From Escherichia coli (lineage in GTDB: Bacteria > Pseudomonadota > Gammaproteobacteria > Enterobacterales > Enterobacteriaceae), in NCBI RefSeq assembly GCF_016026235.1, contig NZ_CP065613.1: a stretch of 64,000 nt of DNA. The stretch is one strand, 5' to 3'. Made by a program: the position numbers and the translations under genes. The notes below the pieces were generated by a model, which made no database searches, was not told where the DNA came from, and saw only the letters and a program-made list of their open reading frames with translations. Of the stretch, positions 28,923 to 35,430 are shown in pieces; position 1 is the stretch's first letter, and every line of letters begins with the position of its first letter.

Positions 28923-30011
28923 ATGTCACCGCAGAATAATCATCTGCAGCGTCCGCCTGCTGCTGTGTTATACGCCGATGAACTGGCAAAATTAAAACAA
29001 AATGATAACGCACCTTGCCCGCCCGGTTGGCAGTTAAGTTTGCCTGCGGCCCGTGCTTTTATCCTTGGCGATAGCGCGCAAAATATTAGCCGTAAAGTGG
29101 TGATTAGTCCCTCCGCTGTCGAACGTATGTTAGTCACTCTTGCCACCGGACGCGGTTTGATGTTGGTGGGGGAACCTGGCACCGCAAAATCTCTCCTGTC
29201 TGAATTACTGGCAACCGCTATTAGCGGCGATGCCGGGTTAACCGTCCAGGGCGGCGCATCTACTACCGAAGATCAAATCAAGTACGGCTGGAACTACGCC
29301 CTGCTTATCAATCATGGTCCATCAACGGAAGCGCTGGTCCCTGCCCCGCTTTACCAGGGAATGCGCGACGGCAAAATCGTCCGTTTTGAAGAGATAACGC
29401 GTACACCGCTGGAAGTGCAAGACTGTCTGTTAGGCATGCTTTCTGACAGGGTGATGACGGTGCCGGAACTCACTGGTGAAGCCAGTCAGCTCTATGCGCG
29501 AGAAGGCTTTAATATTATTGCCACTGCCAATACCCGCGATCGCGGCGTCAATGAAATGAGTGCTGCGCTAAAGCGTCGCTTCGATTTTGAAACTGTCTTT
29601 CCGATTATGGATTTCGCCCAGGAGCTGGAGCTTGTCGCCAGTGCTTCGGCGCGTTTGCTGGCCCATAGCGGTATTCCGCATAAAGTGCCTGACGCGGTAC
29701 TGGAGTTACTGGTCCGCACCTTCCGCGATCTGCGTGCCAACGGCGAAAAGAAAACGTCAATGGATACACTAACAGCGATTATGTCCACGGCTGAAGCCGT
29801 GAACGTGGCCCACGCCGTGGGCGTCCGCGCCTGGTTTTTAGCGAATCGCGCGGGGGAGCCTGCCGACCTGGTGGACTGTATTGCCGGAACCATCGTCAAA
29901 GATAACGAAGAAGATCGCGCTCGTCTGCGCCGTTACTTCGAACAGCGTGTCGCCACACATAAAGAAGCTCACTGGCAGGCTTATTATCAAGCCCGCCACC
30001 GCCTGCCGTGA
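28923..30011 (+). CDS. yehL: MoxR-family AAA+ ATPase
   Basis: Start at MSPQNNHLQRPPAAVLYADELAKL gives 362 aa; Walker A LVGEPGTAKS. Confidence 0.85.
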   Translation: MSPQNNHLQRPPAAVLYADELAKLKQNDNAPCPPGWQLSLPAARAFILGDSAQNISRKVVISPSAVERMLVTLATGRGLMLVGEPGTAKSLLSELLATAISGDAGLTVQGGASTTEDQIKYGWNYALLINHGPSTEALVPAPLYQGMRDGKIVRFEEITRTPLEVQDCLLGMLSDRVMTVPELTGEASQLYAREGFNIIATANTRDRGVNEMSAALKRRFDFETVFPIMDFAQELELVASASARLLAHSGIPHKVPDAVLELLVRTFRDLRANGEKKTSMDTLTAIMSTAEAVNVAHAVGVRAWFLANRAGEPADLVDCIAGTIVKDNEEDRARLRRYFEQRVATHKEAHWQAYYQARHRLP

Positions 30012-30021
30012 GGAAAGATGC

Positions 30022-32301: not shown

Positions 32302-33430
32302 ACTGAACGATCTTCTGACCACCCGTGAGCTACAACGCTGGCGATTAATTCTTGGCGAAGCGGCAGAAACGACGCTTTGTGGGCTGGATGACAACGCCCG
32401 GCAGATAGACCACGCGCTGGAGTGGCTGTATGGGCGCGATCCTGAACGGCTCCAGCGTGGTGAACGTTCCGGTGGATTAGGTGGCTCAAATCTCACCACC
32501 CCTGAGTGGATTAACTGTATTCACAGGCTGTTTCCGCAACAGGTGATTGAGCGGCTGGAAAGCGATGCCGTACTGCGCTACGGCATTGAAGATGTGGTGA
32601 CAAATCTCGACGTGCTGGAACGTATGCAGCCTTCTGAAAGCCTGCTACGCGCCGTTTTGCACACCAAACATCTGATGAATCCCGAAGTACTGGCTGCCGC
32701 CCGCCGGATAGTGCGCCAGGTTGTTGAAGAAATTATGGCGCGCCTGGCAAAGGAAGTTCGTCAGGCTTTTTCTGGTGTCCGCGATCGCCGTCGCCGCTCA
32801 TTTATTCCACTGGCGCGAAACTTTGATTTCAAAAGTACTCTTCGCGCCAACCTGCAACACTGGCACCCGCAACACGGCAAGTTGTATATCGAATCCCCCC
32901 GCTTTAACAGCCGCATTAAACGCCAAAGCGAACAATGGCAACTGGTCTTACTGGTTGATCAAAGCGGATCGATGGTGGACTCGGTGATCCACTCTGCGGT
33001 GATGGCGGCCTGTTTGTGGCAGTTACCCGGCATTCGTACCCATCTGGTGGCGTTTGACACCAGTGTGGTTGATCTCACGGCAGACGTTGCCGATCCGGTA
33101 GAGTTATTAATGAAAGTGCAATTAGGCGGCGGAACCAATATCGCCAGTGCCGTGGAATATGGTCGGCAACTTATTGAACAACCAGCAAAAAGCGTCATTA
33201 TCCTCGTGAGCGATTTTTACGAAGGGGGTTCATCATCATTGCTGACGCATCAGGTGAAAAAGTGTGTCCAGAGCGGCATCAAAGTGCTGGGACTGGCGGC
33301 GCTCGATAGCACAGCAACGCCTTGCTATGACCGCGATACGGCCCAGGCGCTGGTTAATGTCGGCGCACAAATAGCCGCCATGACACCGGGCGAACTGGCA
33401 TCATGGCTTGCGGAGAATCTTCAGTCATGA
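32294..33430 (+). CDS. yehP: von Willebrand factor A (VWA) domain protein
   Basis: 378 aa from MSELNDLLTTRELQRW; VWA-like core (LVLLVDQSGSM…); 8-nt overlap with the yehM stop. Confidence 0.8.
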   Translation: MSELNDLLTTRELQRWRLILGEAAETTLCGLDDNARQIDHALEWLYGRDPERLQRGERSGGLGGSNLTTPEWINCIHRLFPQQVIERLESDAVLRYGIEDVVTNLDVLERMQPSESLLRAVLHTKHLMNPEVLAAARRIVRQVVEEIMARLAKEVRQAFSGVRDRRRRSFIPLARNFDFKSTLRANLQHWHPQHGKLYIESPRFNSRIKRQSEQWQLVLLVDQSGSMVDSVIHSAVMAACLWQLPGIRTHLVAFDTSVVDLTADVADPVELLMKVQLGGGTNIASAVEYGRQLIEQPAKSVIILVSDFYEGGSSSLLTHQVKKCVQSGIKVLGLAALDSTATPCYDRDTAQALVNVGAQIAAMTPGELASWLAENLQS

Positions 33431-35430
33431 ATTCACTACGTCCGGAATTATTAGAACTGACACCGCAGGCCCTGACAGCGTTAAGCAATGCCGGTTTTGT
33501 TAAGCGCAGTCTTAAGGAACTGGAAAATGGCAACGTCCCGGAGATCAGCCATGAGAACGGCGCTTTAATCGCCACCTTCAGTGACGGTGTCCGTACCCAG
33601 CTGGCGAACGGCCAGGCACTGAAAGAGGCTCAGTGCAGCTGCGGGGCCAGCGGCATGTGCCGTCATCGCGTGATGCTGGTGTTAAGTTATCAACGACTTT
33701 GTGCCACCGTCCAGCCCACAGAAAAAGAAGAAGAGTGGGATCCGGCAATCTGGCTGGAAGAACTGGCTACCCTGCCCGATGCCACCCGCAAACGCGCGCA
33801 GGCGCTGGTCGCTAAAGGCATCACCATTGAGTTGTTCTGTACGCCGGGCGAAATTCCCTCTGCCCGCTTACCGATGAGCGATGTGCGTTTTTATTCCCGT
33901 AGCAGCATTCGTTTCGCCCGTTGTGATTGTATTGAAGGCACACTTTGCGAACATGTCGTACTGGCAGTACAGGCCTTTGTCCAGGCAAAAGCGCAGCAAG
34001 CGGAATTGACTCATTTAATCTGGCAGATGCGCAGCGAACACGTCACATCATCTGACGATCTGTTTGCCAGCGAAGAAGGCAAAACGTGTCGTCAATATGT
34101 TCAGCAACTAAGCCAGGCATTATGGCTGGGCGGCATCAGCCAGCCGCTTATTCACTACGAGGCCGCTTTCAGCCGCGCGCAGCAAGCAGCGGAACGCTGC
34201 AACTGGCGATGGGTGAGTGAATCGCTACGGCAACTGCGCGCCAGCGTTGATGCCTTCCACGCCCGCACCAGCCACTATCATGCCGGAGAATGCTTACGTC
34301 AGCTTGCGGCATTAAACAGTCGATTAAATTGCGCACAAGAGATGGCGCGGCGCGACAGTGTTGGTGAAGTTCCTCCTGTGCCGTGGCGCACGGTCGTTGG
34401 CTCTGGCATTGCCGGAGAAGCAAAGCTTGATCATCTGCGGCTGGTGTCTTTAGGTATGCGTTGCTGGCAGGATATTGAGCATTATGGTTTACGCATCTGG
34501 TTTACCGATCCCGACACCGGCAGTATTTTGCACCTTTCGCGCAGTTGGCCGCGAAGTGAACAGGAAAACTCACCGGCAGCTACGCGTCGGCTGTTTAGTT
34601 TTCAGGCTGGCGCACTGGCGGGTGGGCAAATTGTTTCACAAGCAGCAAAACGCAGTGCCGATGGCGAGCTGCTGTTAGCTACCCGCAACCGCTTAAGCAG
34701 CGTTGTGCCGCTGTCGCCTGATGCCTGGCAAATGTTGAGCGCGCCGTTACGCCAGCCGGGCATTGTGGCTTTGCGGGAATATTTACGCCAGCGTCCCCCC
34801 TCCTGCATACGGCCTCTTAATCAGGTCGATAACTTATTTATTCTGCCGGTCGCTGAGTGTATTTCGCTCGGTTGGGATAGCAGCCGCCAGACGCTGGATG
34901 CGCAGGTAATCAGCGGCGAAGGTGAAGATAATCTGCTGACGTTATCACTGCCAGCCTCAGCCAGCGCGCCTTATGCCATTGAACGCATGGCGGCGCTTTT
35001 GCAACAAACAGACGACCCCGTGTGTCTGGTTTCTGGCTTTGTCAGTTTTGTTGATGGGCAATTGACACTGGAACCACAGGTAATGATGACAAAGACTCGT
35101 GCCTGGGCGCTGGACGCAGAAACTGCGCCTGTGGTGGCATCACTACCTTCTGTCAGCGTTCTGCCTGTGCCGTCTACTGCTCATCAGTTGCTGATGCGCT
35201 GCCAGGCATTACTTATTCAACTGCTCCATAACGGCTGGCGCTATCAGGAACAGAGTGCTATTGGTCAGGCAGAGTTGCTGGCGAATGACCTCACCGCGGT
35301 GGGTTTTTATCGGCTGGCACATGTATTGGGACAATTTCGTAATACAGAAAGCGAGGCACGGGTAGAAGCAATGAATAACTGCGTTTTGCTGTGCGAACAA
35401 TTATTCCCCATGCTTCAGCAACAAGGATGA
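33427..35430 (+). CDS. yehQ: SWIM zinc-finger domain protein
   Basis: ATGA overlap with the yehP stop; two CxC…CxH SWIM-type motifs (CSCGASGMCRHRVMLVL; CDCIEGTLCEHVVLAV); start choice between 33403 and 33427 uncertain. Confidence 0.75.
   Translation: MNSLRPELLELTPQALTALSNAGFVKRSLKELENGNVPEISHENGALIATFSDGVRTQLANGQALKEAQCSCGASGMCRHRVMLVLSYQRLCATVQPTEKEEEWDPAIWLEELATLPDATRKRAQALVAKGITIELFCTPGEIPSARLPMSDVRFYSRSSIRFARCDCIEGTLCEHVVLAVQAFVQAKAQQAELTHLIWQMRSEHVTSSDDLFASEEGKTCRQYVQQLSQALWLGGISQPLIHYEAAFSRAQQAAERCNWRWVSESLRQLRASVDAFHARTSHYHAGECLRQLAALNSRLNCAQEMARRDSVGEVPPVPWRTVVGSGIAGEAKLDHLRLVSLGMRCWQDIEHYGLRIWFTDPDTGSILHLSRSWPRSEQENSPAATRRLFSFQAGALAGGQIVSQAAKRSADGELLLATRNRLSSVVPLSPDAWQMLSAPLRQPGIVALREYLRQRPPSCIRPLNQVDNLFILPVAECISLGWDSSRQTLDAQVISGEGEDNLLTLSLPASASAPYAIERMAALLQQTDDPVCLVSGFVSFVDGQLTLEPQVMMTKTRAWALDAETAPVVASLPSVSVLPVPSTAHQLLMRCQALLIQLLHNGWRYQEQSAIGQAELLANDLTAVGFYRLAHVLGQFRNTESEARVEAMNNCVLLCEQLFPMLQQQG

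What the first reader, a model, noticed from the sequence alone, without database searches (positions are those of the whole stretch)
28923..35430. yehLMPQ: translationally coupled MoxR ATPase / large unknown / VWA / SWIM zinc-finger module, a candidate uncharacterised system
Four co-directional genes with start-stop overlaps (8 nt yehM/yehP, ATGA yehP/yehQ) encode a MoxR-type AAA+ ATPase (Walker A GEPGTAKS), a 759-aa protein with no motif I recognise, a VWA protein and a 667-aa protein with two CxC…CxH SWIM-type motifs. MoxR-VWA pairs usually act as ATP-driven remodelling or sensing modules with a third partner. I know of no assigned function for this operon. It sits beside a type I toxin-antitoxin duplication and an array of giant paralogous genes, which would fit a stress or conflict role; that is speculation.
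Basis: partly seen in the sequence, partly recalled or inferred. Interest (0 to 1): 0.7.

Follow-up and report, generated by a model that had tools for sequence, protein, structure and literature searches.

The report
Five-gene MoxR-VWA module of unknown function
The E. coli yehLMPQ operon is real and still has no known function, but it is only four-fifths of a five-gene cassette conserved across bacterial phyla, whose fifth part is the neighbouring giant, strain-variable WGR-DUF4132 genes and whose parts point weakly to DNA-damage or foreign-DNA sensing.

Summary
yehL (AAA_5/MoxR), yehM (DUF5682), yehP (VWA_CoxE) and yehQ (two SWIM fingers) lie at the stated coordinates, with the stated 8-nt and ATGA overlaps.

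The new points are these.
1. The upstream "giant paralogs" (molR/yehH/yehI, WGR-DUF4132) belong to the system. In 80 species from four phyla, genes next to YehM homologues were YehL 79, YehP 77, YehQ 77 and DUF4132 74, mostly in the order I-L-M-P-Q. Bacillus, Streptomyces and Acidobacteria show the same cassette.
2. The YehM model (pLDDT 91) has an N-terminal TIKI/TraB/ChaN/Ere-like hydrolase fold with invariant His and Glu residues, followed by a HEAT-like solenoid.
3. The beta-rich region of YehQ weakly resembles tandem OB folds of the RPA type.
4. In E. coli, yehLMPQ is core (5393 of 5426 genomes) and under purifying selection. The DUF4132 genes vary in copy number and are mosaic. Their middle regions are only 33-46% identical between strains.
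5. A LexA-type box precedes the first paralog.

There were no PADLOC hits, no defence-island context and no solved structures. The function remains untested. My best guess is an ATP-gated sensor-hydrolase complex linked to nucleic acids.

The parts
14104..14119 (+). LexA-type box CTGGATAAAATTACAG, one mismatch to CTGT-N8-ACAG, 10 nt upstream of the first WGR-DUF4132 gene
   Evidence: The box is identical in E. coli HS and lies at the same position in Klebsiella grimontii and Intestinirhabdus. molR is listed among LexA-regulated genes with a known SOS box in PMC6590174.
14129..16279 (+). WGR-DUF4132 paralog 1 (molR-type), N-terminal part: WGR domain plus the strain-variable region, cut short by an insertion
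   Evidence: Translation. Only 1630 of 5426 E. coli genomes match at least 80% of it. Under this stretch in a 99.8%-identical genome, RefSeq annotates a 'WGR domain-containing protein' next to an IS4 family transposase (H37).
16573..17622 (-). IS4-family transposase ORF that interrupts paralog 1
   Evidence: ORF. It is annotated as 'IS4-like element IS4 family transposase' under the 99.8%-identical match H37.
17754..19367 (+). WGR-DUF4132 paralog 1, C-terminal part (DUF4132 region)
   Evidence: It is 59% identical to the C-terminal part of paralog 2 and to the E. coli HS protein.
19380..21011 (+). WGR-DUF4132 paralog 2, N-terminal part (WGR plus variable region), interrupted
   Evidence: It is only 45.8% identical to the corresponding region of the E. 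coli HS protein.
20973..22301 (-). Insertion carrying a 442-aa ORF on the opposite strand. It is probably an IS transposase, but the family was not checked.
   Evidence: It separates the two halves of paralog 2.
22268..23716 (+). WGR-DUF4132 paralog 2, C-terminal part (DUF4132 region)
   Evidence: It is 94.8% identical to the C-terminus of the first DUF4132 protein of E. coli HS.
23726..27358 (+). yehI: intact DUF4132 paralog 3, lacking the WGR domain
   Evidence: Pfam DUF4132 at 5.3e-47. It is 33% identical over 1165 aa to the Serratia WGR-DUF4132 protein, aligning from residue 130 of that protein. dN/dS is 0.14-0.16.
28923..30011 (+). yehL: MoxR-type AAA+ ATPase (AAA_5, 'YehL subfamily')
   Evidence: Walker A (GEPGTAKS), the RFEE, ATAN and KRRF motifs (read as Walker B, sensor 1 and arginine finger) are invariant in 82 sequences. 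dN/dS is 0.02-0.04.
30022..32301 (+). yehM: DUF5682. It has an N-terminal TIKI/TraB/ChaN/Ere-like domain (about aa 1-240) and a C-terminal HEAT/ARM-like solenoid.
32294..33430 (+). yehP: CoxE-type VWA protein with an intact MIDAS motif
   Evidence: DQSGS, GGGT and SD are invariant in 78 sequences. dN/dS is 0.04-0.07.
33427..35430 (+). yehQ: two SWIM zinc fingers, helical bundles, and a beta-rich region that resembles tandem OB folds

Best explanation
yehLMPQ together with the upstream WGR-DUF4132 genes (molR/yehH/yehI) forms one self-contained five-component cytoplasmic system. I read it as an ATP-gated sensor-hydrolase complex. YehL would form a MoxR-type AAA+ ring. YehP would use its MIDAS site to hold an acidic residue of a partner protein. 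YehM would supply a HEAT-like scaffold and a TIKI/TraB-like hydrolase domain, either a protease or an esterase. YehQ (SWIM fingers plus an OB-like region) and the WGR-DUF4132 proteins would be the recognition subunits, most likely for nucleic acid: DNA ends, single-stranded DNA, or foreign DNA. ATP hydrolysis by YehL, acting through YehP, would remodel the complex and switch the YehM hydrolase on or off. The WGR-DUF4132 subunit is exchangeable, exists in several copies and varies between strains, and in Enterobacteriaceae it is induced by the SOS response. What is shown: the gene set, order and conservation, the intact catalytic-type motifs, the fold assignments, and the within-species variability. 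What is inferred: complex formation, the direction of control, the nucleic-acid ligand, and the hydrolase output.
For: (1) Five-gene unit. In 80 species loci from Gamma- and Betaproteobacteria, Myxococcota and Actinomycetota, YehL was present in 79, YehP in 77, YehQ in 77 and DUF4132 in 74. The order I-L-M-P-Q dominates, and most misses fall at contig ends. The same cassette is found in Bacillus mycoides and Streptomyces. Starting from DUF4132 proteins instead, it was found in 3 of 3 cases, including an Acidobacteria MAG. No other flanking gene family is shared beyond genus level. (2) Physical coupling is suggested by overlapping stop and start codons and by full-length DUF5682+VWA_CoxE fusions among distant representatives. 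(3) The enzymatic parts look active. The YehL ATPase motifs and the YehP MIDAS motif are invariant. The YehM N-domain matches six TIKI-superfamily structures and keeps invariant His and Glu residues. Active members of that superfamily use a 2His/2Glu site (PMC6254334). (4) Link to nucleic acid. The WGR region matches the PARP3 WGR domain at 3.2e-4 and 2ra8 at 3e-22. YehQ has two SWIM fingers and an OB-like region resembling RPA, HIN and POT1. A LexA-type box precedes the first paralog and is conserved in Escherichia, Klebsiella and Intestinirhabdus. molR is listed as an SOS gene. In Deinococcus radiodurans, separate DUF4132 and WGR proteins are induced by mitomycin C through IrrE/DdrO. (5) The genes are functional. 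dN/dS is 0.02-0.16, and yehLMPQ is present in 5393 of 5426 E. coli genomes.
Confidence: 0.35

Rival explanations
1. It is an anti-phage or anti-mobile-element immune system. The hypervariable, multi-copy WGR-DUF4132 proteins would be the sensors for invader molecules. The MoxR-VWA pair would set the threshold. The YehM hydrolase would be the effector, possibly acting by abortive infection. This overlaps with the best explanation and differs mainly in what the trigger is and what the system is for.
For: The DUF4132 genes vary in copy number (2 or 3) within E. coli and are mosaic. Their middle regions are 33-46% identical between strains, while the C-termini are 95% identical and yehLMPQ is 95-99% identical. 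Tandem expansion to 2-3 copies recurs in Massilia, Glycomyces, Lentzea and Klebsiella. The cassette is patchy across phyla with lineage-specific flanks, which suggests horizontal transfer as a unit. yehL and yehM are de-repressed in hns/stpA mutants. MoxR-vWA pairs gate effectors in the proposed conflict systems of Kaur et al. 2020. One cassette carries an inserted AAA_15/AAA_21 gene pair.
Against: None of the five proteins matched PADLOC. The cassette is core in E. coli, not accessory. No defence genes or islands were seen in the flanks inspected. It is essentially absent from phages, with 1 weak hit in 50,697 records, and it sits mostly on large non-mobilizable replicons. No classical toxic effector domain was identified.
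Confidence: 0.25
2. It is a dedicated chaperone or cofactor-insertion system like CoxD/CoxE, NorQ/NorD or CbbQ/CbbO. The MoxR-VWA pair would mature a metalloenzyme, perhaps linked to molybdenum, and the ChaN-like domain of YehM would bind a metal or haem cofactor.
Against: No candidate client enzyme is conserved next to the cassette in any lineage. WGR, SWIM and OB-like modules and an SOS box are not expected in a cofactor pathway. In Deinococcus, molybdenum genes were not co-regulated with the DUF4132 and WGR proteins. Strain-level hypervariability of one subunit does not fit a housekeeping chaperone. The original molR paper could not be read.
Confidence: 0.15
3. In E. coli it is a silenced, horizontally acquired remnant with no current role.
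For: yehL and yehM are up-regulated in hns/stpA mutants, and the H-NS-binding region near them was classed as intergenic. Two of the three DUF4132 paralogs in this window are split by insertions. Others are disrupted in FDAARGOS_943. yehM is frameshifted in Escherichia sp. MOD1-EC7003.
Against: All five genes are under strong purifying selection across Escherichia species, with dN/dS 0.02-0.16. yehLMPQ is retained in 99.4% of complete E. coli genomes, and 96% carry at least 80% of it in one place. The catalytic motifs are invariant across phyla.
Confidence: 0.07

Closest known systems
CoxD/CoxE (and the related NorQ/NorD and CbbQ/CbbO) MoxR-VWA maturation pairs
   Same: An AAA_5-type MoxR ATPase is encoded together with a CoxE-type VWA protein that carries a MIDAS site.
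   Different: No client enzyme genes lie alongside. Three extra conserved partners (DUF5682, a SWIM protein, WGR-DUF4132) are not part of those systems.
MoxR-vWA ternary conflict systems (VMAP, iSTAND, FtsH, beta-propeller; Kaur et al. 2020, PMC7159879)
   Same: A MoxR-vWA couple is joined to further conserved components, one of which is variable. The proposed logic is ATP-dependent gating of an effector.
   Different: None of the defining third components is present. That paper does not mention SWIM, WGR or DUF4132. YehL matches Pfam bpMoxR only marginally, at 0.0021. The cassette here is core in E. coli.
RavA-ViaA, the other MoxR-VWA pair of E. coli
   Same: A MoxR ATPase plus a VWA cofactor in one operon. 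YehL is described as the second MoxR protein of K-12 and as the founder of the 'YehL subfamily'.
   Different: It belongs to a different MoxR subfamily. RavA-ViaA acts on LdcI, Nuo and fumarate reductase and has no DUF5682, SWIM or DUF4132 partners.
TIKI/TraB/PrgY/ChaN/erythromycin-esterase superfamily (for example RRSP, Tiki, EreB)
   Same: The YehM N-domain has the same fold and conserved His and Glu residues, as in active members that use a 2His/2Glu site.
   Different: Sequence similarity is at the limit of detection. The domain is fused to a roughly 500-aa alpha-solenoid and embedded in a MoxR-VWA operon, a context not described for this superfamily in the sources I read.
Midasin/Rea1
   Same: The best PDB sequence matches of YehL are midasin AAA domains, at 4e-10. 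Midasin also couples AAA_5 modules to a MIDAS domain for ATP-driven removal of partners.
   Different: Midasin is a single giant eukaryotic polypeptide that acts on pre-ribosomes. The similarity is limited to the ATPase and MIDAS principle.
Variant cassette SWIM-DUF5691-AAA-DUF5682-VWA (Rhizobium, Deinococcus)
   Same: It shares the AAA-DUF5682-VWA core and a SWIM protein.
   Different: The gene order differs. The SWIM protein is shorter, about 460 aa. DUF5691 stands in place of DUF4132 and shows no detectable similarity to it or to YehQ.

Membership tests
MoxR-type AAA+ ATPase (AAA_5) | AAA_5 domain with Walker A, Walker B, sensor 1 and arginine finger | tested here: met
   Pfam AAA_5 at 1.7e-34. 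GEPGTAKS, RFEE, ATAN and KRRF are invariant in 82 sequences.
MoxR-type AAA+ ATPase (AAA_5) | Encoded next to a VWA-domain partner | tested here: met
   YehP co-occurs in 77 of 80 loci.
MoxR-type AAA+ ATPase (AAA_5) | Hexameric ring with ATPase activity stimulated by the VWA partner | not testable with these tools
   This needs biochemistry.
VWA / MIDAS proteins (CoxE type) | VWA_CoxE domain with the MIDAS residues DxSxS, T and D | tested here: met
   Pfam 3.2e-72. D221-x-S223-x-S225, the T of GGGT and the D of SD are invariant in 78 sequences.
TIKI/TraB/ChaN/Ere superfamily (YehM N-domain) | Parallel beta-sheet core flanked by helices, as in solved members | tested here: met
TIKI/TraB/ChaN/Ere superfamily (YehM N-domain) | Sequence-profile match to a member family | tested here: inconclusive
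   3 of 25 N-domains hit Pfam Cofac_haem_bdg at E <= 0.1, best 3.7e-3. There was no PDB profile hit.
TIKI/TraB/ChaN/Ere superfamily (YehM N-domain) | Catalytic 2His/2Glu (His-Glu pair) at the sheet edge | tested here: inconclusive
   H11, E35, E176 and H202, and also E83 and E143, are invariant in 50 sequences.
SWIM zinc finger | CxCxnCxH zinc-binding signature | tested here: met
   There are two copies. The first is invariant and the second at least 90% conserved.
WGR domain proteins | WGR domain at the N-terminus | tested here: met
   Pfam WGR is on record for the Serratia and Burkholderia orthologues. The family profile hits 2ra8 at 3e-22 and the PARP3 WGR domain at 3.2e-4. It is present in window paralogs 1 and 2 and absent from yehI.
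Known anti-phage defence systems (PADLOC-DB v2) | Match to a model of a known or candidate defence protein | tested here: not met
   There were no hits for YehL, YehM, YehP, YehQ, YehI, YehK or YehR at E <= 0.01.
Known anti-phage defence systems (PADLOC-DB v2) | Location in variable or defence islands, with accessory distribution | tested here: not met
   Core in E. coli. Flanks are metG/apbC and btsSR. No defence genes were seen in the annotated or Pfam-tagged flanks inspected. This is a sample of contexts, not a statistical test.
MoxR-vWA ternary conflict systems (Kaur et al. 2020) | Third component is VMAP, an inactive STAND, FtsH, or a beta-propeller fused to the vWA protein | tested here: not met
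   The partners here are DUF5682, SWIM and DUF4132. The paper does not mention them.
CoxD/CoxE-type cofactor maturation systems | Encoded with the client enzyme genes | tested here: not met
   No flanking family is shared by more than 10 of 80 loci, and none beyond genus- or family-level synteny.

The most novel reading that the evidence does not exclude
The five-gene cassette is a previously undescribed, phylum-spanning surveillance system for nucleic acid or DNA damage. Interchangeable, hypervariable WGR-DUF4132 sensor proteins and a SWIM/OB protein would detect aberrant or foreign DNA. A MoxR-VWA motor would then license a TIKI-like protease or esterase. That would be an immune-like pathway sitting unrecognised in the core genome of E. 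coli.
Probability: 0.25. Interest if true: 0.85.

Novelty: new variant of a known kind. Interest (0 to 1): 0.6.

Why it matters
yehLMPQ is one of only two MoxR systems in E. coli, and the "YehL subfamily" is one of seven recognised MoxR subfamilies. It still has no function. This analysis makes the problem experimentally approachable in four ways:
- It shows the true unit has five genes.
- It assigns a hydrolase fold with mutable candidate residues to the "unknown" 759-aa protein.
- It identifies a strain-hypervariable subunit.
- It points to DNA damage as a trigger.

Work should use a strain with intact paralogs, and the residues and conditions to test are now specified. If the system proves to sense DNA damage or invaders, it would add a new architecture, a MoxR-VWA pair gating a TIKI-type enzyme, to bacterial stress or immune pathways.

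Tried and rejected
- PADLOC gave no hits for any of the proteins. NCBIfam gave only generic AAA and VWA similarities.
- PDB sequence and profile searches found nothing informative for YehM, YehP, YehQ or the YehM N-domain.
- My first neighbourhood analysis used HMMs built from raw ORFs. It was contaminated by over-extended, out-of-frame ORFs in high-GC genomes and gave false "missing" calls. I replaced it with phmmer using clean E. coli queries.
- An exact CTGT-N8-ACAG search found no site near the operon. 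Allowing one mismatch found the site, but only in the Escherichia-Klebsiella-Intestinirhabdus clade.
- hhalign of DUF5691 against DUF4132 and YehQ showed no relationship.
- PHROG matches at near-full score to small, unnamed families are most likely host genes swept into prophage calls. They are not evidence of viral origin, because only 1 of 50,697 phage records has even a weak YehM match.
- The original molR paper (PMC208707) is not held.
- Full-text searches found no functional study of the operon.

Full report
**Observation.** The window is E. coli/Shigella chromosome. The 6.7-kb stretch is 100% identical to E. coli FDAARGOS_943. It matches 5393 of 5426 complete E. coli genomes, and 5325 of 5395 matching records fall at 95-99% identity. 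RefSeq annotation and the ORF list give these coordinates, all on the + strand:
- yehL 28923-30011
- yehM 30022-32301
- yehP 32294-33430
- yehQ 33427-35430

There is a 10-nt spacer between yehL and yehM. yehM and yehP overlap by 8 nt, ATGTCTGA. yehP and yehQ overlap as ATGA. Pfam results are:
- YehL: AAA_5, 1.7e-34
- YehM: DUF5682, 4.5e-98
- YehP: VWA_CoxE, 3.2e-72
- YehQ: two SWIM matches, 9.7e-4 and 0.21

Both CxC..CxH signatures are present and conserved among 23 homologues.

**The unit has five genes, not four.** Gene tables around YehM homologues in Burkholderia and Serratia showed a 1300-1400-aa WGR+DUF4132 protein directly next to the AAA_5/DUF5682/VWA_CoxE/SWIM genes. YehI (window 23726-27358) is 33% identical over 1165 aa to the Serratia protein. 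It carries DUF4132 at 5.3e-47 but lacks the N-terminal WGR domain.

I then fetched 80 loci, one per species, around YehM homologues. They came from Gamma- and Betaproteobacteria, Myxococcota and Actinomycetota. I searched their six-frame ORFs with the clean E. coli proteins. Counts out of 80 were:

| Protein | Loci with a hit |
|---|---|
| YehL | 79 |
| YehP | 77 |
| YehQ | 77 |
| DUF4132 (YehI) | 74 |
| WGR | 63 (phmmer sensitivity limits this) |
| YehK | 3 |
| YehR | 5 |

The dominant order is DUF4132-L-M-P-Q. It is exact in 37 loci, and more loci have 2-3 tandem DUF4132 copies. Burkholderia has L-M-P-Q-DUF4132. Most misses are at contig ends. Annotated records show the same five genes in Bacillus mycoides and Streptomyces. 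Starting from DUF4132 proteins instead, all three contexts examined carry AAA_5, DUF5682 and VWA_CoxE alongside. One of them is an Acidobacteria MAG.

Clustering all flanking ORFs found no additional family shared beyond genus-level synteny. The cassette is therefore self-contained and sits in different surroundings in different lineages. yehK, yehR and the toxin-antitoxin insert are local additions.

A second, related cassette type exists in Rhizobium and Deinococcus: SWIM(460 aa)-DUF5691-AAA-DUF5682-VWA. DUF5691 shows no detectable similarity to DUF4132 or YehQ.

The DUF5682 family has 2278 representatives at E <= 1e-3 among 1.84 billion cluster representatives. Some distant members are full-length DUF5682+VWA_CoxE fusions.

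**What the parts are.**
- *YehL.* It keeps Walker A (GEPGTAKS) and the invariant RFEE, ATAN and KRRF motifs, which I read as Walker B, sensor 1 and the arginine finger, in all 82 sequences aligned. Its best PDB sequence matches are midasin AAA modules and McrB. The literature treats it as the founder of the "YehL subfamily", one of seven MoxR subfamilies (PMC3893208).
- *YehP.* It keeps an invariant MIDAS signature (DQSGS, GGGT, SD).
- *WGR.* The WGR region of the DUF4132 family matches the solved structure 2ra8 at 3e-22 and the PARP3 WGR domain at 3.2e-4.
- *DUF4132.* The domain has many invariant charged and aromatic residues. It has no fold assignment, because I had no structure-prediction jobs left.

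**State in E. coli.** The four genes and yehI are under purifying selection between Escherichia species:

| Gene | dN/dS |
|---|---|
| yehL | 0.02-0.04 |
| yehP | 0.04-0.07 |
| yehM | 0.09-0.11 |
| yehQ | 0.08-0.11 |
| yehI | 0.14-0.16 |

One species has a frameshifted yehM. The DUF4132 genes behave very differently from yehLMPQ within the species:
- yehI is 90-95% identical in 3365 of 5332 matching records.
- The C-terminal part of paralog 2 is 90-95% identical in 2781 of 5330 records.
- The N-terminal 2.1 kb of paralog 1 is matched over at least 80% of its length in only 1630 of 5426 genomes. In the sampled rows for the others, only the first ~326 nt align, which is the promoter plus the WGR domain.

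E. coli HS has two DUF4132 genes instead of three. The C-terminal 481 aa of its first protein are 94.8% identical to the window's paralog 2. Its N-terminal ~530 aa are only 45.8% identical to paralog 2 and 33% identical to paralog 1. The region between WGR and the DUF4132 C-terminus is therefore mosaic and hypervariable within one species, and copy number varies. In this window, paralogs 1 and 2 are each split by an insertion (an IS4 family transposase is annotated in a near-identical genome).

**Regulation and literature.** A LexA-type box, CTGGATAAAATTACAG, lies at 14104-14119, 10 nt upstream of paralog 1. It is identical in E. coli HS. Klebsiella grimontii and Intestinirhabdus have a box at the same position. 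I did not find one in Erwinia, Serratia or more distant loci.

molR is listed among LexA-regulated genes with a known SOS box (PMC6590174). In Deinococcus radiodurans, a DUF4132 protein (DRA0166) and a WGR protein (DR2173) are induced by mitomycin C in an IrrE/DdrO-dependent manner (PMC8533742). yehL and yehM are up-regulated in hns/stpA mutants, and the H-NS-binding region near them was classed as intergenic (PMC3686432). BglJ-RcsB activates the molR promoter (PMC3950696). A +1 frameshift site in yehP has been reported (PMC2790909). I found no functional study of the operon. The Kaur et al. survey of MoxR-vWA conflict systems does not cover it.

**Context.** No protein matches PADLOC. In E. 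coli the neighbours are yehABCD, apbC and metG upstream and yehR, yehS and btsRS downstream. YehM homologues occur on 38 plasmid records, mostly large non-mobilizable replicons, and on 1 of 50,697 phage records. The "defence island" prediction is therefore not met. The cassette does look horizontally mobile as a unit over long time scales.

**Interpretation.** The best-supported statement is structural. This is a five-component MoxR-VWA system with a TIKI-like hydrolase/scaffold subunit, a SWIM subunit that may also carry OB folds, and an exchangeable WGR-DUF4132 subunit.

My preferred mechanism, at confidence about 0.35, is an ATP-gated sensor-hydrolase complex triggered by DNA damage or abnormal DNA. 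It rests on domain precedents (WGR in PARPs, OB in RPA and POT1, SWIM), on SOS and radiation-response regulation in two distant lineages, and on the general MoxR-VWA remodelling paradigm. The rivals are:
- An immune reading (about 0.25). It is compatible with the same architecture and is favoured by the hypervariable multi-copy subunit. It is disfavoured by the core distribution, the lack of defence neighbours and the lack of PADLOC hits.
- A CoxD/CoxE-like cofactor-maturation role (about 0.15). It has no conserved client enzyme.
- A silent remnant (about 0.07). Purifying selection contradicts it.

**Novelty.** The operon, its DUF families and the YehL MoxR subfamily are already catalogued, so the bare observation is not new. 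In the sources I could search, I did not find three things described: the five-gene definition including WGR-DUF4132, the TIKI-fold assignment for DUF5682, and the within-species hypervariability of the DUF4132 genes. I rate it a new variant of a known kind (MoxR-VWA multi-component systems), with moderate to high interest.

Noticed in passing
window 27740-28920 (RNAs at 28128-28201 and 28736-28811, + strand; small ORFs at 27793-27882 and 28401-28490, - strand): This is a tandem duplication of a type I toxin-antitoxin locus between yehK and yehL. It has two Rfam OrzO-P antitoxin RNAs (88.8 and 99.9 bits) and two 29-codon ORFs (MDTLTQKL...LIDLLK) on the opposite strand, which resemble ZorO/ZorP from memory. 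The insert is absent in E. coli HS, where the yehK-yehL gap is 306 bp.
   Followed up: partly
window 14129-27358, compared with L091 9130-16566 (E. coli HS): The WGR-DUF4132 array varies within E. coli in copy number (3 here, 2 in HS) and is mosaic. WGR plus promoter and the C-terminal DUF4132 region are conserved at about 93-95%. The roughly 500-600-aa middle region is only 33-46% identical between strains. By contrast, yehLMPQ is 95-99% identical across the species.
   Followed up: partly
window 16573-17622 (-) and 20973-22301 (-): Two insertions split DUF4132 paralogs 1 and 2 in this strain. One is an IS4 family transposase. The other carries a 442-aa ORF whose family I did not check. In FDAARGOS_943 the same array is disrupted at other places by IS600 and IS5, so the DUF4132 genes are recurrent IS targets or are tolerated losses.
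   Followed up: partly
window 33152-33167 (+), inside yehP: [quoted passage not shown] The change falls in the Shine-Dalgarno-like stimulator. The frameshift would give a 303-aa YehP truncated shortly after GGGT, so lacking the C-terminal part of the VWA domain, including the invariant SD aspartate.
   Followed up: no
L087 4759-12805 (Deinococcus taeanensis plasmid); L090 5113-12448 (Rhizobium etli plasmid): A second cassette type has the order SWIM(~460 aa)-DUF5691-AAA-DUF5682-VWA. DUF5691 replaces DUF4132 and shows no detectable similarity to it. This suggests a family of systems built on the AAA-DUF5682-VWA core.
   Followed up: partly
L086 18883-20888 (-): In one metagenomic cassette, a two-gene insert lies between the DUF5682 and VWA genes. 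It consists of an AAA_15/AAA_21/SMC_N-type ATPase and an unannotated 272-aa protein on the opposite strand. The gene pair looks like a small defence-type module.
   Followed up: no
L064 9100-9969 and 12620-13837 (Betaproteobacteria bacterium MS502-43); also L056: In these two related genomes, a 289-aa ORF with weak similarity to DNA-damage-inducible protein D (DinD, 4e-6) sits between the yehL and yehM homologues. No YehP or YehQ homologue was detected downstream. The next ORF has an intein C-terminal motif.
   Followed up: partly
window 28923-35430 and 19380-27358 (proteins): YehM, YehP, YehQ, YehI and paralog 2 each match small, unnamed PHROG families at near-maximal score over their full length (for example phrog_30700, 31592, 29006, 20839). 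These PHROGs most likely derive from host genes included in over-extended prophage calls, because phage genomes lack the cassette.
   Followed up: partly
L006 10001-12280 (Escherichia sp. MOD1-EC7003): yehM is split into two ORFs (510 and 244 aa) in this species representative, while its neighbours are intact. This is an isolated case of decay of the operon.
   Followed up: no
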